22,136 bases of DNA from Bacilli bacterium (GCA_045545595.1 JAZQBG010000019.1:1-22136); one strand, 5' to 3'. Positions 1-8,815 are shown, counted from the stretch's first letter. Notes: a model not told the origin generated them from the letters alone. Program-made: numbers and translations.

Positions 1-1341
1 TACTCTTGCATTTTCTGGTAGTTTCCATTTACCATTTACTTCTCTATCTAGTACTAGATTAAATGCCATGTTTTGTATTGCTGGTAATGCATTTGTTATT
101 TCATCTAAAAATACTATGTGTATCTTATCTTTTTCTTTTTCACATCTTTCTTCTAGCTTAACTAACCATGTTGGTTTTATATCTATTATCTTTTTACTAC
201 TTTCTATTAATTTATCAAAACTGATTTCACCTTTATCATACATTGGCTTTAACATTTCAAATGTTGCTTGATCTGTCATAGCTACACTTTTTCCATTTAA
301 GCTTTCTGGAGTTGCATTAGCTAGGTATATTATTTCACAATCTGGATCTAATTGTTTTACCCTGGCGCTTTTACCTTCACTACTTCTACCATGTAATAAT
401 ACTGATATTCCACTTTGTACTGAAGCTTTTATTATATCTTCTTCACTTACTTCTTCAAAATCAAAGTTATATGGATTTTTTCTTCTATTATTTTCTTCAT
501 CTTGTTCACTACTTACTTCTAGATTTACTGCTTTTGTACGAAACATTTCTATTGACAAATATTTATCCATAAACTCTTTCATATCAGTCTTAGAAAAATC
601 ACCTTTGTAATCCCTTGTGTTTTTAAACTGTATACCTGATACTATTATTTCTTCAGTTATCATTAATTTTGACTTTTCATCTACTAACCATTTTACTGGT
701 TCAACTTCAACCCATACATAATCACCACGTGTATAAGTTTCCCCGTTTGATAATGTAAATTCATCATCGAATGTATTAGCTGCAACTCTTACATATTTTT
801 TCCCGTTATATTCATATTCAGCATGAACTTTTGGACAAAATACTTCGTAATAATCATAACACATTATTGAATCAGTTATGTATGCATTGTTATTTTTATT
901 TAATCTTAAAGCAAGAAAGGTATCCTCTAATTTGTCTTGTATATTTTTAGGCGCTGCACTTCTTGGATAATAACCATATTCTACTTCTAGTATTCCATCT
1001 TTTGATCTTCCACTCACTCCGTTCGTGGGGATTGATTGGACGCTAGAGAACGATAAAGCGGGACGGACCCCACCAGTACGCTTATTAACAAGGTTGCTGT
1101 TACTATCACCATCGTAGTGAACGACGCGCGCGTCATTATCCTGATCATCAGTTTTAGTCCAATACCATCCTGTTCTTTTATCTAGTGTACGAGTATAGTC
1201 TACATAAAAAACACTACTTACAAATCCACCTAAAAGAATCGCAAAATCTGTTATTGCAGCTTTTGTTCCTCTTTTCTTTATTACATCTAGTGCCTTATCT
1301 CCAAATATTTGACTTTCTTCTAACAATGTTAGTTCTTGCAT
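1..1341 (-). CDS. DGR target protein, paralog 2 (5' portion only, runs off the left edge): N-terminal variable domain + AAA+ ATPase
   Basis: Not in the ORF track because it is edge-truncated. Hand translation from ATG (1341-1339) gives MQELTLLEESQIFGDKALDVIKKRGTKAAITDF... with no stop in 447 codons. It is highly similar by eye to residues 1-450 of the 665-aa ORF at 3226-5223, apart from the VR and a divergent linker with a 3-codon length difference. Walker A GRSSEGKS and Walker B IVFLDEITN are present. Confidence 0.8.
   Translation of the reverse strand, partial: MQELTLLEESQIFGDKALDVIKKRGTKAAITDFAILLGGFVSSVFYVDYTRTLDKRTGWYWTKTDDQDNDARVVHYDGDSNSNLVNKRTGGVRPALSFSSVQSIPTNGVSGRSKDGILEVEYGYYPRSAAPKNIQDKLEDTFLALRLNKNNNAYITDSIMCYDYYEVFCPKVHAEYEYNGKKYVRVAANTFDDEFTLSNGETYTRGDYVWVEVEPVKWLVDEKSKLMITEEIIVSGIQFKNTRDYKGDFSKTDMKEFMDKYLSIEMFRTKAVNLEVSSEQDEENNRRKNPYNFDFEEVSEEDIIKASVQSGISVLLHGRSSEGKSARVKQLDPDCEIIYLANATPESLNGKSVAMTDQATFEMLKPMYDKGEISFDKLIESSKKIIDIKPTWLVKLEERCEKEKDKIHIVFLDEITNALPAIQNMAFNLVLDREVNGKWKLPENARV
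1059..1132 (-). repeat. DGR variable repeat VR2
   Basis: 74 nt, colinear with TR 6527-6600. There are 9 mismatches: 8 at plus-strand T (coding-strand A of the TR) and 1 in the 3'-terminal hairpin loop. Encodes ARVVHYDGDSNSNLVNKRTGGVRP; the TR in the same frame encodes ARVVNNDGNSNNNNVNKRNGGVRP. Confidence 0.9.
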
Positions 1342-1374
1342 TATCTATCACTTACTTTCTCTTAAGTTTACGCA

Positions 1375-2826
1375 TTACCTTTTTCTACAATTATTTGAAT
1401 TTGAGTTAGATAATTTTTTTAATTGCTCATCCGTAATATATATAACTTTACCACCTGGTGGATTTATTTTGTCACTACCAAATACTACCCATATAGCATT
1501 TACACTTTTTTCAGGCATATCTGCATATCCATCAGTAAATATTATTTTATTTTCTGTCCTTCTAGAAAACGCATTAACTGCTGTATCAAAATTTGTTCCA
1601 CCTCTACCTACAAATTCCATATTATCAATGTCTTTTTCATTTCTAATTTCATGAAAACCATAAAATTTAGTGTCAAAACATCCGACCTTTACTTTAGAAG
1701 TTTTCAAAATATTTTTACATTCTCTAAGAAAATTTCTAAGTAGTGTATTATTAATAGAGCCACTGGTATCTAATAATATTTCAGTTTCTGGTTGAGGCAT
1801 TTTTTCAAGATGAGGAGTTACGATACCATCTTCAACAGTTGCGTTCTTATAAGACCAATCTACATTTAATTTAATAGCTTCCCTTAAATATCTTCTCCAG
1901 TCAATTAAAGGTGAAGCATTTCCTATATCATCAAATTTTATAATATTGGAATCAGTAGTATTACCTGAACTAGTAGATTGTTTCGCTAAAGAATTTTTAA
2001 GTTCTTCCAATAATTTTTCTTTTTCTTTTTTATTTTCGCTAAACGTTTTCTTTTCTCCTTGTTCAGATAGTTTTTTTATGGTTTCCTCTTTTTTACTTTT
2101 AGGTTCTGTATCTCCTTGTTCATTCTGAGGTTCAGTTTTTTCTTCTTTAGTTTCTTCATTTTTATCTCTATTAAATAATTTGTCTAAGAAATTACTTTTC
2201 TTTTTATTTTCCTTTTTCTCTTCTTGTTTTTGTCCGTTACCATTACTATTTTGTTGGTCTTGATTTTTTCTCTTTTCAATGGCATCATCCCACATACTAT
2301 GAGAGTCATGACCTACATTCATATCTTCAAATGTATCATCGCTTGACGAACTTTGACTAGGATTATTCTCTTGTCCATTTCCATCAGAACTAGACTGACT
2401 ATTTTTGTTGTCTTTCTGATTTTGGTTATTATTTTCCTTTTCCTTTAATAGTTTTTCATAATATGATTCAACATCATAATTATATGCTTCTGGTTTGTTA
2501 ACTCCACCTTCAACAAGTGGTAATCCATCATGCACTAAGTTTGCATTAATCACTGCATCTGCAGCTGTATTCCATAATCTTTTATCCTTGCCTTCACTTC
2601 TATAAATATGATTAAGCGCAACATGGGCTATTTCATGTGCAAAAATAAATACTTTTTCATCTTCTGTTAATCCACTTATAAAATCAGGATTATAATAAAT
2701 TGTATCACCATCTGTTTCTGCTATTGGACATTTTATTGTTTCAACATAATTCATATTCGCAAGTACACTTCCAAATGATGGATACTTTATAAGCAGTTTT
2801 CTTTTTATGTTATCTACATTTACCAT
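1375..2826 (-). CDS. VWA-like domain protein with N-terminal HExxH zinc metallopeptidase-like domain (DUF2201-type, as recalled) and a long low-complexity linker
   Basis: 483-aa ORF with AGGAGA RBS 6 nt upstream. N-terminus has FAHEIAHVALNH (HExxH) followed by WNTAADAVINANL. C-terminus has LLDTSGSI ... GGTNF ... IIFTDGY, typical of a VWA/MIDAS-like fold. About 175 aa of N/Q/S/K/E-rich linker lies between. This domain pair is a classical partner of MoxR-type AAA+ ATPases. Confidence 0.85.
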   Translation of the reverse strand: MVNVDNIKRKLLIKYPSFGSVLANMNYVETIKCPIAETDGDTIYYNPDFISGLTEDEKVFIFAHEIAHVALNHIYRSEGKDKRLWNTAADAVINANLVHDGLPLVEGGVNKPEAYNYDVESYYEKLLKEKENNNQNQKDNKNSQSSSDGNGQENNPSQSSSSDDTFEDMNVGHDSHSMWDDAIEKRKNQDQQNSNGNGQKQEEKKENKKKSNFLDKLFNRDKNEETKEEKTEPQNEQGDTEPKSKKEETIKKLSEQGEKKTFSENKKEKEKLLEELKNSLAKQSTSSGNTTDSNIIKFDDIGNASPLIDWRRYLREAIKLNVDWSYKNATVEDGIVTPHLEKMPQPETEILLDTSGSINNTLLRNFLRECKNILKTSKVKVGCFDTKFYGFHEIRNEKDIDNMEFVGRGGTNFDTAVNAFSRRTENKIIFTDGYADMPEKSVNAIWVVFGSDKINPPGGKVIYITDEQLKKLSNSNSNNCRKR

Positions 2827-2836
2827 ATAAATTCTC

Positions 2837-3229
2837 CTAGATTTGCGCTAATAAAGAATATATATTTTCATTTATAGGATTTTCTTTTAAATTAGAACAT
2901 GTAACAATAATGATACAATTCTTAGGTAATTCAAAAGTACTTACTTTTTTATATTTTAATATTTCACCAAACTTTATTTGTTCGTCAGTTGATATTTTAT
3001 TAATTTCATTTATAACTAGTATTTGATTCTTTTTTTCTATCAGTTCATTATACCAATTAGGCGCTACAAAATTTGTTTCTTCATAACTTCCATTTAATAT
3101 TTCTCTATCACAGTTACTTTCAATAATTACAGCATCTTCAAATGCTTTCACAGAAACATCCTCCATTAATATTGGTGAAATCCCCGATTTTATATAACTA
3201 TTTAAAATTTTCATTTTTTCTTCATTCAT
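2837..3229 (-). CDS. Small operon protein of unknown function; possible degenerate AAA+ core fragment
   Basis: 130-aa ORF. Its ATG overlaps the TGA of the upstream gene (ATGA), which suggests translational coupling. The segment LVINEINKISTDEQIKFGEILKYKKV...LPKNCIIIVTCSNL mimics the Walker B to sensor-1 stretch of the neighbouring ATPase (IVFLDEITNALPSIQNMAFNLVLDREV...LPENARVVAAGNEL), but with NE in place of DE and no P-loop. Confidence 0.6.
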   Translation of the reverse strand: MNEEKMKILNSYIKSGISPILMEDVSVKAFEDAVIIESNCDREILNGSYEETNFVAPNWYNELIEKKNQILVINEINKISTDEQIKFGEILKYKKVSTFELPKNCIIIVTCSNLKENPINENIYSLLAQI

Positions 3230-5223
3230 AGTTTTTTTGCTCCTTCATTCAAATTACTAACTCTAAGTTCAGCTATTCTCTCAAGTCTATCATTATCTCC
3301 ATGTATCCATATATTATCAAATGTTGCGGTTACTTCTGGTCCTAACTTTTCTACAAAACTTCTTACTACTTCTACATGTTCATCACTTACACTTGATAAA
3401 CCTAAAGCTGTCGCGTATTTTTCTGACAAGTTCATATTTAAATCACTTTCTGTATAGTTGTTATTTATTACATCTTCTACTGTAATTACTTGTTCTCTAC
3501 AGAAATTTACAAAGTCATATGTTACTTCTTCTCCTACTAATCCTCTTATCATCTCTGGCTTACCTGTTGTATATAATACCTTTGATGCCATCTCCCATTT
3601 TCTTGGGTCTGCATTAGGTTTTTCTCCTGTATATTCTGTTCTTAATGCTTCTATTCCTTTGTATGCTATAAAGGCATATACTGCTGGATGTATCTTTGTT
3701 TTTACTTCTTCTTTCTTATAATCTAATCTTTGATATTTTTCTTCTGGTGTCGATGCCCACTTTAACCAACTCTCTACTGTTGTCTCTATATATACATGAC
3801 AAAATCTATTATACAGTGGTTCTGTTAATTCGTTTGCTGACAATGAATCAGAAAGCTCATTTCCTGCCGCTACTACTCTTGCATTCTCTGGTAATTTCCA
3901 TTTACCATTTACTTCTCTATCTAATACTAGATTAAATGCCATGTTTTGTATACTTGGTAATGCATTTGTTATTTCATCTAAAAATACTATATGTATCTTA
4001 TCTTTTTCTTTTTCGCATCTCTCTTCTAGATTAACTAACCATGTTGGTTTTATATCTATTATCTTTTTACTACTTTCTATTAATTTATCAAATGTTATTT
4101 CACCTTTATCATACATTGGTTTTAACATTTCAAATGTTGCCTGGTCAGTCATAGCTACACTTTTACCATTTAAACTTTCTGGTGTGGCATTAGCTAGGTA
4201 TATTATTTCACAATCTGGATCTAATTGTTTTACTCTGGCACTTTTACCCTCACTACTTCTACCATGTAATAGTACTGATATTCCACTTTGTACTGAAGCT
4301 TTTATTATATCTTCTTCACTTACTTTTTCAAAATTAAAGTTATATGGGTTTTTTCTTCTATTATTTTCTTCTTTTTGTTCCTTTATTTCAGTACCTAAAT
4401 CCATATATATTGTTTGGAAATTTAACATTTCTTTTGACAAATATTTATCCATAAACTCTTTCATATCAGTTTTAGAAAAATCACCTTTATAGTCTCTTGT
4501 ATTTTTAAACTGTATACCTGAAACTATTATTTCTTCTGTAATCATTAATTTTGATCTTTCATCTACTAACCACTTTACTGGTTCAACTTCAACCCATACA
4601 TAATCACCACGTGTATAAGTTTCTCCATTTGATAATATAAATATCTCATCTTTAGAATTAGCTCGTACTCTTACATATTTTTTCCCGTTATATTCATATT
4701 CAGCATGAACTTTTGGACAAAAAACTTCGTCATAATCATAACACATTATTGAATCAGTTATGTATGCATTGTTATTTTTATTTAATCTTAAAGCAAGAAA
4801 GGTATCCTCTAATTTGTCTTGTATATTTTTAGGCGCTGCACTTCTTGGATAATAACCATACTCTACTTCAAATATTCCATCTTTTGATCTTCCACTCACT
4901 CCGTTCGTGGGGATTGATTGGACGCTAGAGAACGGTAAAGCGGGGCGTACCCCAACAGTACGTTTATTAACATAGTTGTTGTTACTATCACCACCGATGT
5001 TAACGACGCGCGCGTCATTATCCTGATCATCAGTTTTAGTCCAATACCATCCTGTTCTTTTATCTAGTGTACGAGTATAGTCTACATAATATTTGTTACT
5101 TACATATCCACCTAAAAGAATCGCAAAATCTGTTATCGCCGCTTTTGTTCCTCTTTTCTTTATTACATCTAGTGCCTTATCTCCAAATATTTGACTTTCT
5201 TCTAATAATGTTAGTTCATTCAT
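3226..5223 (-). CDS. DGR target protein, paralog 1: N-terminal variable (C-type-lectin/FGE-like, GVRPAL-type) domain fused to an AAA+ ATPase (MoxR/AAA_5-like)
   Basis: 665-aa ORF with AGGTGA RBS 7 nt before the ATG at 5223. No signal peptide or TM segment. Residues ~55-97 read GWYWTKT...ARVV...GVRPALPF, the pattern seen in small DGR-type variable ligand-binding domains. The VR covers residues 71-94. The central part has Walker A GRSSEGKS, Walker B IVFLDEITN, VVAAGN and YNRF motifs. Confidence 0.9.
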   Translation of the reverse strand: MNELTLLEESQIFGDKALDVIKKRGTKAAITDFAILLGGYVSNKYYVDYTRTLDKRTGWYWTKTDDQDNDARVVNIGGDSNNNYVNKRTVGVRPALPFSSVQSIPTNGVSGRSKDGIFEVEYGYYPRSAAPKNIQDKLEDTFLALRLNKNNNAYITDSIMCYDYDEVFCPKVHAEYEYNGKKYVRVRANSKDEIFILSNGETYTRGDYVWVEVEPVKWLVDERSKLMITEEIIVSGIQFKNTRDYKGDFSKTDMKEFMDKYLSKEMLNFQTIYMDLGTEIKEQKEENNRRKNPYNFNFEKVSEEDIIKASVQSGISVLLHGRSSEGKSARVKQLDPDCEIIYLANATPESLNGKSVAMTDQATFEMLKPMYDKGEITFDKLIESSKKIIDIKPTWLVNLEERCEKEKDKIHIVFLDEITNALPSIQNMAFNLVLDREVNGKWKLPENARVVAAGNELSDSLSANELTEPLYNRFCHVYIETTVESWLKWASTPEEKYQRLDYKKEEVKTKIHPAVYAFIAYKGIEALRTEYTGEKPNADPRKWEMASKVLYTTGKPEMIRGLVGEEVTYDFVNFCREQVITVEDVINNNYTESDLNMNLSEKYATALGLSSVSDEHVEVVRSFVEKLGPEVTATFDNIWIHGDNDRLERIAELRVSNLNEGAKKL
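3874..5223 (-). repeat. ~1.35-kb direct repeat with 1-1341 (paralogous 5' parts of the two target genes)
   Basis: Offset is 3882 at the gene starts and VRs and 3873 at the window's left edge, so copy 1 is 9 nt (3 codons) longer inside a divergent linker (about 4370-4440 versus 495-560). The remainder is near-identical by eye. Confidence 0.85.
4941..5014 (-). repeat. DGR variable repeat VR1
   Basis: 74 nt, colinear with the TR. There are 8 mismatches: 5 at coding-strand A positions of the TR (AAC>ATC, GAT>GGT, AAT>GAT, AAT>TAT, AAT>ACT) and 3 non-A changes, all within the last 15 nt. Encodes ARVVNIGGDSNNNYVNKRTVGVRP. Confidence 0.9.
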
Positions 5224-5275: not shown

Positions 5276-6307
5276 TTATTCTCCATATTTATGAGGAAAA
5301 GTATCATTTTTAAGTTTTAAACTTTCATCTGTATTTTTAATATGATTATAAAAAGCATTTTTTCTAATATAGACATATTCATCATCCACTATATTTTTAT
5401 TCCTTAATTTGTTTAGCGTTTTTAAATGTCTTTTTAATCTAATCTTTGATGATGAACGTAATTTTCTTAATATCCGTCCATTACTATTTAAAATGTGTCT
5501 ATATCCAAGGAAATCTATTCCATTTTTAACCATACCTATTTGTGTTTTAAAATTCAATTCTAAATTAAGTTCATTGTTACATAACTCATCTATTTTATTT
5601 AAACAATAATTTAAATAATTTTTATCTCGGTGAATTAGTATCATATCATCCATGTATCGGATATAACCTTTAATTCTTAGTTTTTCTTTTATTAATCTAT
5701 CTACTTTATTTAAATAGAAAAGCGCAAACAATTGACTGGATTGATTGCCAAGTGGTAATCCTGCACTAGCATTATCTGGTTGTTCTTTTACTAGTTTTTT
5801 AATTAACCACATTTCATCAAGTGAAAATTCTACATTTTTAAGTAAATTTAATAATACTTGGTGGTCAATACTAGGAAAGTATTTTTTTATATCACATTTT
5901 AAATAGTAGATTTTATTATTACGTTCTTTTAAGTATTCATGTCGTAAAAATTTTTCTAATCTATTTATTGCAAAGCTACTACCCTTACCTTTTCTACAAG
6001 CAGCGTTGTCATATATTAATTTTTTCTCTATTTTAGGTTTAAGAACATTATCACAAAAACATCTTATAACTATTCTATCCTTAAATGGCGGTGCCTCAAT
6101 TAATCTTTTCTTTGGTTCATAAATTAAAAATGTTTTATATTTTCTTAATTTATATTTTTTTGTAGTTAGTTCTTTTTTTAAATTATTTAAATTAACTGCA
6201 AGATTAATTTCAAACCTAATAACTTCACCCTTATGTTGTTTAGATTTTCTACACTCTAAATAGGCATTGTATAAATTTTCAAAAGTAAATATTTCTTCTA
6301 ACTCCAT
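5276..6307 (-). CDS. DGR-type reverse transcriptase
   Basis: The ORF track starts at 6331 (GTG). I prefer ATG 6307 (MELEEIF...), which follows an AGGGGG RBS 6 nt upstream. Motifs: KCDIKKYFPSIDH, GLPLGNQSSQLFALFYLN (the [I/L]GxxxSQ signature that separates DGR RTs from retron and group II RTs), and YIRYMDDMILI (YxDD). It sits next to the TR. Confidence 0.92.
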   Translation of the reverse strand: MELEEIFTFENLYNAYLECRKSKQHKGEVIRFEINLAVNLNNLKKELTTKKYKLRKYKTFLIYEPKKRLIEAPPFKDRIVIRCFCDNVLKPKIEKKLIYDNAACRKGKGSSFAINRLEKFLRHEYLKERNNKIYYLKCDIKKYFPSIDHQVLLNLLKNVEFSLDEMWLIKKLVKEQPDNASAGLPLGNQSSQLFALFYLNKVDRLIKEKLRIKGYIRYMDDMILIHRDKNYLNYCLNKIDELCNNELNLELNFKTQIGMVKNGIDFLGYRHILNSNGRILRKLRSSSKIRLKRHLKTLNKLRNKNIVDDEYVYIRKNAFYNHIKNTDESLKLKNDTFPHKYGE

Positions 6308-6526
6308 AAATTTCCCCCTAAAAAAGAACACTCCGTGTAACTTGTAAAAAACAGATTATCTATTCGTTACTTGTGTAAGTGTTCATGTTTTTCCATCGCA
6401 CTTATTTCTTTTAGCGGTTAGAAAAGAGAAAAATTCCTTCACTTTAAATGCTGATATATTTTACTTAAAATATATTTATCTGATTTGTTTTATAGATTCA
6501 CATTGTAAATCTTTTCAAAAGTGAAT
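6308..6526 (-). ncRNA. DGR RNA spacer region between TR and RT (expected to be co-transcribed with the TR)
   Basis: Non-coding, with no credible ORF. Two inverted repeats: GATTCAC 6495-6501 / GTGAATC 6521-6527, abutting the TR 3' end, and GAACACT 6326-6332 / AGTGTTC 6378-6384, just upstream of the RT RBS. In characterised DGRs the TR-adjacent spacer is part of the functional RNA. Confidence 0.55.
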
Positions 6527-6600
6527 CGGGACGAACCCCACCATTACGTTTATTAACATTGTTGTTGTTACTATTACCATCGTTGTTAACGACGCGCGCG
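6527..6600 (-). repeat. DGR template repeat (TR)
   Basis: An intergenic 74-nt copy of the VRs. The coding-strand sequence is rich in AAC/AAT codons (9 AAY codons) and contains 23 adenines. It begins with CGCGCGCG and ends in a GGGG-UUCG-UCCC hairpin, a strikingly GC-rich patch in an AT-rich genome. Confidence 0.9.
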
Positions 6601-6672: not shown

Positions 6673-7257
6673 CTAATGTTTTGTATTCCATCTTTTATCA
6701 TCACTTTTCTTCCAAGCAATAGTTAAATTGATTGCTTCAGCAACTTGCATAGAAATTTGTTTATATTGTTTTTTTAATATACAAGAAGAATTAAAGGCAA
6801 GTAATGAAATATACCCTAATAGTTTTAGTTTTACTATAGCCTGTTTTTGTAATTCTTCTCTTCTTAATTTGTTATCTGTTGAGTCTATCCTTATATAATT
6901 AGCTTGCAATAAATATTCTAATGTATCTATACAATAGTTTTGCATACGATTAACAAATACTCCTCTAAATTTTTTAGGTGACTTTTCTGTAACTGTAATA
7001 ACGTATGCGGCTAATTTCTTTACAACAGTTATTACAACCAATTCATTAGCGTTATATGGTATTTTAGATATTGTTTCTAAATCTTTGTCCTCTTGCATTA
7101 TCACTTCTTTAGTTAATTTTTCATCAAATTTTATGTTATTTGCTGTAGCGATACCTTTTTTAATCTGTACTATATCTTCTACACTATTTGGATTTCTATC
7201 ATGTACATCTATTTGTTTTGGTATTTTCAAATTATTATCTCTACTTACTTGAAACAT
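6673..7257 (-). CDS. avd: Avd-like accessory variability determinant (four-helix-bundle type) with an N-terminal extension
   Basis: 194-aa ORF with AGAGGAG RBS 7 nt upstream. It lies directly upstream of the TR on the same strand. The C-terminal ~125 aa is helical and basic, with the general look of Avd/'23S rRNA-intervening-sequence' family proteins (KKFRGVFVNRMQNYCIDTLEYLLQAN ... AEAINLTIAWKKSDDKR). Assignment rests on position and pattern only. Confidence 0.6.
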   Translation of the reverse strand: MFQVSRDNNLKIPKQIDVHDRNPNSVEDIVQIKKGIATANNIKFDEKLTKEVIMQEDKDLETISKIPYNANELVVITVVKKLAAYVITVTEKSPKKFRGVFVNRMQNYCIDTLEYLLQANYIRIDSTDNKLRREELQKQAIVKLKLLGYISLLAFNSSCILKKQYKQISMQVAEAINLTIAWKKSDDKRWNTKH

Positions 7258-8714: not shown

Positions 8715-8717
8715 AAA

Positions 8718-8815
8718 CATTTTCGTTCGGGATAATTTATTACTCGCACCACCCGAGAGCGAGAAACATTGTCGACCGGAATAACTTATTACTCGCACCA
8801 TCCGGGAGCGAGAAA
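8718..8815 (-). repeat. Two tandem 49-nt repeats, each predicted to form an H-type pseudoknot (structured RNA; type III antitoxin-like or tandem aptamer)
   Basis: Period is exactly 49 nt (the AAACATT motif recurs with its C at 8718, 8767 and 8816). 42 of 49 positions are identical. Stem 1 is CUCGC/GCGAG in both copies. Stem 2 is UCGGG/CCCGA in one copy and CCGGA/UCCGG in the other, i.e. two compensatory base-pair changes. The stems are interleaved in the order S1-5', S2-5', S1-3', S2-3'. Confidence 0.7.

What the first reader, a model, noticed from the sequence alone, without database searches (positions are those of the whole stretch)
1059..5014. One TR serves two independently diversified VRs, with two shared substitutions
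VR1 encodes NIGGDSNNNYVNKRT and VR2 encodes HYDGDSNSNLVNKRT, against NNDGNSNNNNVNKRN for the TR. Most substitutions are private to one copy, which indicates separate mutagenic homing events into two targets. Two are shared: AAT>GAT at TR codon 9 and AAT>ACT at codon 19. These could reflect duplication after an earlier homing event, gene conversion, or selection. AAA (Lys) is kept or changed synonymously (AAG in VR2), and no stop codon was created. The element therefore looks active or recently active, and the products appear to be under selection.
Basis: seen in the sequence. Interest (0 to 1): 0.65.

Follow-up and report, generated by a model that had tools for sequence, protein, structure and literature searches.

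The report
Retroelement diversifying two paralogous ATPase genes
This is a diversity-generating retroelement whose single template rewrites a short patch near the start of two paralogous ATPase genes; two targets per template is ordinary for such elements, the two shared changes are consistent with chance, and the unusual part is the kind of protein being diversified.

Summary
Three 80-nt copies lie on the minus strand: a non-coding template (TR, 6521-6600) and two coding variable regions, VRb (4935-5014) and VRa (1053-1132). In the part upstream of the GC-rich 3' end, 13 of 14 VR/TR differences are at TR adenines.

The element has the expected DGR (diversity-generating retroelement) parts:
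- an Avd-like accessory gene;
- the TR;
- a 190-nt structured spacer;
- a reverse transcriptase with YMDD and LGNQSSQ motifs.

Two targets per TR is a known DGR layout (13% of DGRs in Wu 2018). The two shared substitutions are not beyond chance (simulated P = 0.11). One of them, Asp, is also the commonest residue at that position family-wide.

Current activity cannot be shown because no same-species sequence exists in the collections. In the nearest relatives, the same gene from different samples differs almost only inside the VR.

The unusual feature is the target. It is a predicted cytoplasmic 665-aa protein with the VR at residues 70-96, in an N-terminal DUF6273-like domain fused to a MoxR-like AAA+ ATPase. 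A VWA-metallopeptidase partner gene follows. The family is large and comes from uncultured gut Bacilli.

The parts
6673..7257 (-). Avd-like accessory gene (194 aa), with a roughly 70-aa N-terminal extension
   Evidence: Pfam bAvd E=0.0036 and NCBIfam DivGenRetAVD E=3.4e-7, both below the curated cut-offs. It keeps 59-69% identity and the same position upstream of TR/RT in about 25 related loci.
6521..6600 (-). Template repeat (TR), non-coding. Its 23 mutable adenines lie between 6544 and 6587. The 3' part 6521-6543 is the IMH*-like element GGTGGGGTTCGTCCCGATTCAC.
   Evidence: It sits between avd and RT, as in 20 relatives.
6332..6520 (-). Structured spacer of the DGR RNA between TR and RT. The TR 3' end (GATTCACTTT) pairs with AAAGTGAAGG about 85 nt downstream, enclosing two hairpins; two further helices follow.
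   Evidence: Alignment of 17 loci. RNAalifold gives 41 pairs, 22 with compensatory changes. The window keeps all helices except one C-A mismatch.
5276..6331 (-). DGR-type reverse transcriptase (351 aa)
   Evidence: RVT_1 E=1.3e-18. YMDD at residue 226 and LGNQSSQ at residue 194.
3226..5223 (-). Target B (665 aa): N-terminal DUF6273-like variable domain, beta-rich middle domain, MoxR-like AAA+ ATPase and helical C-terminus
4935..5014 (-). VRb (residues 70-96 of target B). 4935-4957 is the IMH-like 3' element.
2837..3229 (-). Small conserved partner gene (130 aa), function unknown
   Evidence: Always lies between or next to target and VWA genes in 77 loci. No family match beyond a weak Sigma54_activ_2 hit, E=0.026.
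1375..2826 (-). Partner gene (483 aa): DUF2201_N metallopeptidase (HEIAH) plus DUF2201 VWA domain (MIDAS motif DTSGS)
   Evidence: Pfam E=4.4e-35 and E=2.2e-14; motifs; synteny.
1..1341 (-). Target A, a paralog of target B that runs off the window's left end (first 447 codons present; 91% aa identity)
1053..1132 (-). VRa (residues 70-96 of target A). 1053-1075 is the IMH-like 3' element.

Best explanation
This is a chromosomal diversity-generating retroelement. The TR and its structured 3' spacer are transcribed. The RT, with the Avd-like protein, copies the TR into cDNA and misreads adenines. The cDNA then replaces the homologous 60-70 nt of a VR, guided by the GC-rich 3' element (IMH) and by the 13-nt CGCGCGCGTCGTT homology at the 5' end. 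Both paralogous target genes carry that homology, so each is rewritten separately; this explains the mostly private substitutions. The two identical substitutions are coincident hits, possibly helped by selection for Asp at residue 79.

The 12 variable codons form a beta-hairpin in a small N-terminal DUF6273-like domain. That domain is fused to a MoxR-like AAA+ ATPase, which works with a VWA-metallopeptidase partner.

Shown here: the repeats, the adenine bias, intact genes and motifs, the conserved RNA structure, and VR-restricted polymorphism in relatives.

Inferred: the homing steps (by analogy with Bordetella phage BPP-1), present-day activity in this strain, and the role of the target. My inference for the target is a cytoplasmic variable-ligand sensor that couples binding to ATPase-driven activation of the peptidase, most plausibly in a conflict or phage-defence role.
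For: - Three-copy repeat with adenine-specific differences.
- RT with YMDD and the DGR motif LGNQSSQ, and an Avd-like gene.
- The same avd-TR-RT-target layout in 20 relatives with a recognisable TR, with the VR at nt 186-224 of the gene. Pooling 21 TR/VR pairs, including the window's two, gives 215 substitutions at 523 TR adenines against 23 at non-A bases.
- The fixed TR/VR difference GATTCAC versus GCTTTAC at the 3' end is conserved family-wide. The TR version forms a covarying RNA helix.
- Paralog differences are concentrated in the VR, with identical flanks.
- In the nearest relatives, the same gene from different samples differs almost only in the VR: 16 of 18 differences and 18 of 22 differences.
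- Shared substitutions are compatible with chance, P = 0.11.
- The target has a confident AAA+ fold related to MoxR, NorQ and RavA. Walker A/B, HExxH and MIDAS motifs are intact, and there are no membrane segments.
Against: - There are no population or same-species data for this strain.
- VRb has only 22% of its adenines changed, the lowest of 21 pairs. It also has three non-A differences in its 3' element, and one spacer helix has a C-A mismatch. These features would fit an element that has been quiet for some time.
- No DNA hairpin beyond chance lies 3' of either VR.
- The Avd match is below curated thresholds.
- The N-terminal domain has no significant structural match to known DGR variable proteins.
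- The defence role is pure inference: PADLOC finds nothing for the target, p130 or VWA proteins.
Confidence: 0.85

Rival explanations
1. The element is a fossil. Both VRs were written by mutagenic homing in the past, but the DGR no longer works in this strain, and the VRs now evolve by ordinary mutation.
For: VRb has the lowest mutated-A fraction in the family set and three non-A changes near its 3' end, and VRa has one. One spacer helix carries a C-A mismatch. A syntenic relative (L081) has lost or never had the avd-TR-RT unit at the same chromosomal site. In sister lineages, identical VR alleles recur in different samples, so rewriting is not continuous.
Against: The RT, Avd, TR, 5' homology and all other RNA helices are intact. 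The non-A changes lie in the 3' element, which in the BPP-1 model is not copied from the TR, and two are synonymous. Neither VR has a stop codon, although the AAA codon can yield one.
Confidence: 0.25
2. The two shared substitutions are inherited. One VR was diversified, the gene was then duplicated or gene-converted, and later homing events rewrote only part of each VR.
For: The flanks of the two VRs are identical for 88 and 62 nt, although the paralogs differ by about 8% overall. This could mark a gene-conversion tract. P0003, a close relative, also has GAT at codon 9 and ACT at codon 19.
Against: - Chance alone gives two or more identical shared hits in 11% of trials.
- One shared site (TR 6544) is the adenine nearest the 3' priming end, so any later homing would overwrite it first. 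The shared sites are interleaved with private ones.
- Relatives' TRs mostly have AAT at both codons, so TR drift is unlikely.
- Other close relatives carry Val, Leu or Arg at codon 9 and Asp or Asn at codon 19.
Confidence: 0.1
3. There is no retroelement action. The two VRs are ordinary fast-evolving paralog segments under positive selection, and the third copy is a gene fragment.
For: A second variable patch, at residues 40-46, differs between the paralogs without any template. Some variability in this domain is therefore untemplated.
Against: Differences fall at the template's adenines (P = 1.5e-4 in the window; 215 versus 23 family-wide). The third copy is non-coding, sits between avd and RT in 20 relatives, and is embedded in a covarying RNA structure.
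Confidence: 0.01
4. One of the two VR-bearing copies is an assembly duplication.
For: Some related assemblies do show tandem target copies with identical VRs (L057, L059, L063).
Against: In the window the copies differ at about 110 of 1341 nt, including a 9-nt indel. Their upstream regions differ, and they are separated by the p130 and VWA genes. The same target-p130-VWA-target order occurs in L076, L079 and L080.
Confidence: 0.01

Closest known systems
Bordetella phage BPP-1 DGR (mtd-avd-TR-brt), the prototype
   Same: Avd-like gene, non-coding TR next to an RT with the DGR motif, adenine-specific TR-to-VR differences, a GC-rich 3' element with fixed TR/VR differences (IMH versus IMH*), and a structured RNA region between TR and RT.
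   Different: - The gene order is avd-TR-RT-target, with targets downstream.
- The TR is only 80 nt long, with 23 adenines.
- The VR lies at residues 70-96 of a 665-aa protein, not at the C-terminus.
- There are two targets.
- No hairpin beyond chance lies 3' of the VR.
- The element is chromosomal, not in a phage: its neighbours are Rnf, YqeH, sigma factor and tRNA genes.
Multi-target DGRs (Treponema denticola, Stenotrophomonas; Wu et al. 2018, PMC5758913)
   Same: One TR serves several paralogous targets. [quoted passage not shown]
   Different: Those targets are mostly C-terminal CLec or FGE-type surface proteins. Here the targets are ATPase fusions with an N-terminal VR, and only three N-terminal cases were noted among 372 DGRs.
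Tentaclins: gut-phage DGR targets with an N-terminal DUF6273 C-lec-like domain (PMC10743442)
   Same: [quoted passage not shown]
   Different: Tentaclins are phage proteins with Ig domains after the variable domain. Here the domain is fused to an AAA+ ATPase in a bacterial chromosome. The DUF6273 match is weak: 10 of 64 members, best E = 1.5e-5, with the window protein below the cut-off.
DGR-associated vWA-MoxR (VMAP) ternary conflict systems (Kaur et al. 2020, PMC7159879; Dore et al. 2024, PMC10907252)
   Same: A DGR-diversified binding domain is combined with a MoxR-like AAA+ ATPase, a vWA protein and a peptidase. Targets are predicted to be cytoplasmic, and duplicated targets are common.
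   Different: - In those systems the VR is in a C-terminal FGS/CLec domain fused to the vWA protein, MoxR is separate, and a VMAP protein is present. The hosts are cyanobacteria and gammaproteobacteria with multicellular habits.
- Here the VR domain is N-terminal and fused to the ATPase itself.
- The peptidase is fused to the VWA protein (DUF2201).
- No VMAP protein is detected.
- The hosts are small-genome, uncultured gut Bacilli.
MoxR-VWA chaperone pairs (RavA-ViaA, NorQ-NorD, CbbQ-CbbO)
   Same: The AAA+ fold of the target matches RavA, NorQ and CHU_0153, and it is paired with a VWA protein carrying a MIDAS motif.
   Different: Those pairs mature or remodel specific enzymes and have no hypervariable domain, no retroelement and no HExxH peptidase on the VWA partner.

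Membership tests
Diversity-generating retroelement (DGR) | Reverse transcriptase of the DGR type (YxDD catalytic motif and [I/L/V]GxxxSQ in motif 4) | tested here: met
   RVT_1 E=1.3e-18; YMDD at 226 and LGNQSSQ at 194. No phylogenetic placement was done.
Diversity-generating retroelement (DGR) | TR/VR near-repeat whose differences fall at adenines of the non-coding copy | tested here: met
   13 of 14 differences upstream of the GC-rich element are at TR adenines. An A-masked pattern finds exactly 3 sites, with 0 in shuffles.
Diversity-generating retroelement (DGR) | Accessory gene (Avd or HRDC) | tested here: inconclusive
   The bAvd and DivGenRetAVD matches are below curated cut-offs, but the gene is conserved in position upstream of the TR in about 25 loci.
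Diversity-generating retroelement (DGR) | IMH at the 3' end of the VR, with a diverged IMH* in the TR | tested here: met
   GC-rich GGTGGGGTNCGYCCCG is followed by GCTTTAC in the VRs and GATTCAC in the TR. The same fixed difference occurs in 20 relatives. The function of the element was not tested.
Diversity-generating retroelement (DGR) | VR displayed on a C-type-lectin-like (or Ig-like) ligand-binding fold | tested here: inconclusive
   Weak Pfam DUF6273 and Fib_succ_major matches cover the VR. The confident N-terminal model (pLDDT 94) has no significant PDB or BFVD match; the best is a DUF6273 phage protein at E = 0.1.
Diversity-generating retroelement (DGR) | Ongoing RT-dependent mutagenic homing | not testable with these tools
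   No same-species sequences exist. Indirect support comes from VR-restricted polymorphism between samples in the nearest relatives.
VMAP (vWA-MoxR-associated protein) ternary conflict system | MoxR-like AAA+ ATPase | tested here: met
   AAA_5 E=4.3e-5; Foldseek hits to RavA, NorQ and CHU_0153; Walker A/B intact.
VMAP (vWA-MoxR-associated protein) ternary conflict system | vWA-domain protein encoded alongside | tested here: met
   DUF2201 VWA-like domain E=2.2e-14 with a DTSGS MIDAS motif.
VMAP (vWA-MoxR-associated protein) ternary conflict system | A VMAP-domain third component | tested here: not met
   The third gene (130 aa) matches no family in Pfam, NCBIfam or PADLOC. No VMAP profile was available here, so a very distant relation cannot be excluded.
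VMAP (vWA-MoxR-associated protein) ternary conflict system | DGR-variable FGS/CLec domain at the C-terminus of the vWA protein | tested here: not met
   The VR is at residues 70-96 of the ATPase protein, and the VWA protein has no VR.
Known anti-phage defence systems (PADLOC-DB 2.0) | Match of the target, p130 or VWA protein to a defence-system model | tested here: not met
   No hits for these three proteins; only the RT matches generic RT models.

The most novel reading that the evidence does not exclude
The window shows one member of a large, undescribed family found in uncultured gut Bacilli. In this family a DGR reprograms the ligand-binding tip of a cytoplasmic MoxR-like AAA+ ATPase, which acts with a VWA-metallopeptidase. 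Under this reading the system is a hypervariable intracellular sensor, probably directed against phages or other invaders. That would extend 'DGR-diversified antigen sensors' from multicellular cyanobacteria and proteobacteria to unicellular, small-genome gut bacteria. In many relatives the TR carries in-frame stop codons, so homing would also switch the sensor on and off.
Probability: 0.3. Interest if true: 0.8.

Novelty: new variant of a known kind. Interest (0 to 1): 0.45.

Why it matters

The target is what matters. Most cellular DGR targets described so far are surface or secreted binding proteins with a C-terminal VR. DGR-diversified NTPase systems have been proposed as antigen sensors mainly in multicellular bacteria.

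Here the variable domain is N-terminal and fused directly to a MoxR-like ATPase, with a VWA-peptidase partner. The family has at least 3,180 database relatives (E <= 0.001 among the 8,000 candidates scored) and occurs in 319 stretches of species-representative genomes, mostly gut MAGs.

If these are intracellular sensors, they give a compact three-gene system plus retroelement. That system could be used to test how a bacterium uses programmed hypermutation for recognition inside the cell.

Tried and rejected
An A-masked TR pattern found nothing in metagenome contigs or viral contigs. The closest target proteins are 78-79% identical and the closest RT in metagenome contigs is 75% identical. The test could not be done.
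- **Structural identification of the VR domain.** The confident N-terminal model gave no significant PDB or BFVD hit. Sequence and profile searches of the PDB found nothing.
- **BPP-1-type DNA hairpin 3' of the VRs.** Folding energies were no better than shuffles, with z-scores of -0.3 and -0.1.
- **p130 as a degenerate AAA+ fragment of the target.** BLASTP showed no significant similarity.
- **Known defence system.** PADLOC and NCBIfam gave nothing for the target, p130 or VWA proteins.
- **Prophage origin.** The flanks are housekeeping genes (Rnf, YqeH GTPase, HAD, sigma factor, RadC, five tRNAs). The same neighbourhood occurs without the DGR in L081.
- **A second TR for the variable patch at residues 40-46.** No repeat was found in the window. 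The apparent A-bias there, 6 of 7 changes, is not significant given about 50% A content.
- **TR drift as the source of the shared substitutions.** Relatives' TRs mostly keep AAT at both codons.


Full report
**The observation**

The window holds three copies of an 80-nt sequence, all on the minus strand: 6521-6600, 4935-5014 and 1053-1132. I built a pattern that keeps every non-adenine base of the 6521-6600 copy and frees every adenine. It matches exactly these three places with no mismatch, and matches none of 100 shuffles of the window.

The copy at 6521-6600 is intergenic.

Upstream of the GC-rich 3' end there are 23 adenines in the template.
- VRb (4935-5014) differs from the template at 5 of them.
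- VRa (1053-1132) differs at 8.
- The only other change there is G>T in VRb, at the first bases of the GC-rich element.
- Counting the whole repeat before the fixed 3' difference, 13 of 17 changes are at adenines, against an adenine content of 31% (P = 1.5e-4).

The two shared changes exist: AAT>GAT at TR 6575 and AAT>ACT at TR 6544. A third site is hit in both copies with different bases.

**What it is**

Read on the minus strand, the gene order is as follows:

| Order | Feature | Coordinates |
|---|---|---|
| 1 | Avd-like gene | 7257-6673 |
| 2 | TR | 6600-6521 |
| 3 | 190-nt spacer | 6520-6332 |
| 4 | Reverse transcriptase | 6331-5276 |
| 5 | Target B | 5223-3226 |
| 6 | 130-aa gene (p130) | 3229-2837 |
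| 7 | 483-aa DUF2201 gene | 2826-1375 |
| 8 | Target A (runs off the window) | 1341-1 |

The RT has YMDD and the DGR-type LGNQSSQ motif. The Avd match is weak, but the gene keeps its place in about 25 related loci. This is a diversity-generating retroelement (DGR).

It is chromosomal rather than phage-borne.
- The neighbours are Rnf subunits, a YqeH GTPase, a HAD phosphatase, a sigma factor, RadC and five tRNAs.
- A related contig, L081, has the same neighbourhood with a single target cassette and no avd-TR-RT.

**Family evidence**

The target protein has at least 3,180 database relatives (E <= 0.001 among the 8,000 candidates scored) that align full-length at 45-79% identity. It is found in 319 stretches of species-representative genomes. 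Most are uncultured gut Bacilli or 'Tenericutes' MAGs from human, mouse, rabbit and ruminant samples.

In 77 fetched loci the target, p130 and VWA-metallopeptidase genes almost always occur together. About 29 loci have RT sequence directly upstream of the target, most of them with the Avd-like gene as well. Fifteen have two to six target copies.

In 20 relatives with a recognisable TR, the TR sits between avd and RT, and the VR is at nt 186-224 of the target gene. Pooling 21 TR/VR pairs, including the window's two, gives 215 substitutions at 523 TR adenines (41%) against 23 at other bases.

The 3' end shows a fixed difference everywhere: GATTCAC in the TR and GCTTTAC in the VR. This is what an IMH*/IMH pair looks like.

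The TR-to-RT spacer is conserved. RNAalifold predicts 41 pairs, 22 of them with compensatory changes. One helix pairs the TR's own 3' end (GATTCACTTT) with AAAGTGAAGG about 85 nt downstream. That explains why the TR keeps GATTCAC while the VRs keep the coding version. The window retains these helices apart from one C-A mismatch.

**Independent diversification**

The two paralogs differ at about 8% of nucleotides and by a 9-nt indel. Two unique genes lie between them, so neither is an assembly duplicate. Within the 67-nt VR there are 12 paralog differences. The 88 nt before it and the 62 nt after it have none. The differences are therefore targeted to the VR.

**The two shared substitutions**

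I simulated 23 sites with 8 and 5 hits, using the family's substitution spectrum (A>G 43%, A>C 29%, A>T 27%). Two or more identical shared changes occurred in 11% of trials, and three or more doubly hit sites in 21%.

Asp at residue 79 (codon 9) is the commonest residue at that position in the family, 24 of 71. A neutral expectation from the same spectrum is roughly 10%. Convergent selection is therefore plausible for that site. Thr at residue 89 is not strongly favoured (9 of 71).

Inheritance through duplication or gene conversion is not needed, and it fits poorly. One shared site is the adenine closest to the 3' end, which would be overwritten first by any later homing. The shared sites are also interleaved with private ones.

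Close relatives carry Val, Leu, Arg or Asp at codon 9 and Asp, Asn or Thr at codon 19. P0003 has the same Asp/Thr pair as the window, which hints at some preference.

**Is it active?**

This cannot be shown here. No sequence from the same species is in the collections: the closest targets are 78-79% identical and the closest RT 75%.

Indirect evidence favours activity in the clade.
- P0002 and P0137 are the same gene from two samples. They differ at 18 of 1980 nt, 16 of them within nt 227-265.
- P0142 and P0003 differ at 22 of 1989 nt, 18 of them within nt 223-266.

On the other hand, identical alleles also recur in different samples (L079 = L080), so rewriting is occasional rather than constant. 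In the window, VRb has the lowest fraction of changed adenines of the 21 pairs (22%) and three non-A changes in its 3' element. I put a quarter of the probability on a currently silent element.

**The target**

The AlphaFold model of target B is confident (mean pLDDT 86). Its C-terminal half matches AAA+ ATPases, including MoxR-type RavA, NorQ and CHU_0153. Walker A (GRSSEGKS), Walker B (IVFLDE) and sensor-1 are present.

The N-terminal 265 residues model very confidently on their own (pLDDT 94, pTM 0.92). The VR forms a beta-hairpin at residues 70-84. This model has no significant match in the PDB or in BFVD. The best hit is a phage DUF6273 protein at E = 0.1.

Pfam DUF6273 covers the VR region weakly in the window protein and passes E <= 0.01 in 10 of 64 relatives. 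DUF6273 is a C-lec-like DGR target domain already known at the N-terminus of gut-phage 'tentaclins'.

The partner protein has an HEIAH metallopeptidase domain and a VWA domain with a DTSGS MIDAS motif. None of the three proteins has a membrane segment.

My inference is a cytoplasmic sensor. A hypervariable hairpin binds a ligand, and the AAA+ ring with its VWA adaptor turns that binding into peptidase action. This resembles the DGR-linked vWA-MoxR conflict systems proposed by Kaur et al. 2020 and Dore et al. 2024. It fails two of their defining features: no VMAP protein is detected, and the VR is not on the vWA protein. PADLOC finds nothing for these three proteins. The function is unproven.

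**Comparison with what is known**

- Two targets per TR is ordinary: 13% of DGRs.
- N-terminal VRs are rare but recorded: three of 372 DGRs, plus the tentaclins.
- DGR links to MoxR/vWA systems have been described computationally, in other phyla and with a different architecture.
- I found no paper that links DGRs with DUF2201. The large 2021 survey I searched (Roux et al., PMC8144416) does not mention ATPase targets.

I therefore rate the finding as stated as ordinary. I rate the system as a new variant of a known kind.

Noticed in passing
L001, L002, L005, L007, L008, L011, L012, L015, L035, L054, L057, L072 (TRs); VRs of L001 10001-10420, L002, L005, L008, L035: In 12 of 20 relatives the TR carries in-frame TAA or TGA at conserved codons, most often 6 and 12, so faithful copying would give a nonsense VR. 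Five species-representative assemblies have in-frame TGA, TAG or TAA inside the VR of an otherwise intact target gene. The window's TR has AAC at both places. This may be DGR-driven on/off switching, or a consensus artefact of mixed VR populations.
   Followed up: partly
window 6332-6543 (-) and the matching regions of 16 loci: The DGR RNA between TR and RT has a conserved structure with 22 covarying pairs. The TR's 3' end pairs with a downstream segment, which accounts for the fixed TR/VR difference GATTCAC versus GCTTTAC. The last helix overlaps the RT ribosome-binding region.
   Followed up: partly
window 5090-5105 (target B) and 1208-1223 (target A), residues 40-46: A second cluster of paralog differences (YVSNKYY versus FVSSVFY) has no template copy in the window. 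The same positions vary as N/D/Y/H/S across the family and within 90% clusters. It may be part of the binding surface next to the VR hairpin.
   Followed up: partly
L081 1-12251: A related species has the same chromosomal neighbourhood (deacetylase, HAD, YqeH, RnfC, RnfD, two small genes) and one target-p130-VWA cassette, but no avd-TR-RT. Its VR region has lost the family-invariant Val85 and Arg88.
   Followed up: partly
L079, L080, L078 (nearest relatives): In the nearest relatives the last target copy is followed by a DUF3048 gene, not by its own p130 and VWA genes. Two targets therefore appear to share one p130-VWA pair. The window's target A may be such a terminal copy.
   Followed up: no
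L057 8548-17965; L059; L063: Tandem target copies carry identical VRs: four copies in L057, two each in L059 and L063. In L057 the VR has 7 non-A differences from the TR. This may be recent duplication, assembly collapse or an inactive element.
   Followed up: no
window 8715-8812: Two tandem 49-nt repeats (86% identical) lie in the intergenic region between the 246-aa gene and the RnfD-like gene. Each contains a CTCGC...GCGAG inverted repeat. No Rfam match.
   Followed up: no
window 4955 (VRb, residue 90): A non-adenine G>T change gives Gly>Val at the first codon of the GC-rich 3' element. Val is a natural variant at this position in 14 of 71 relatives, and some relatives' TRs also have T there.
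   Followed up: yes
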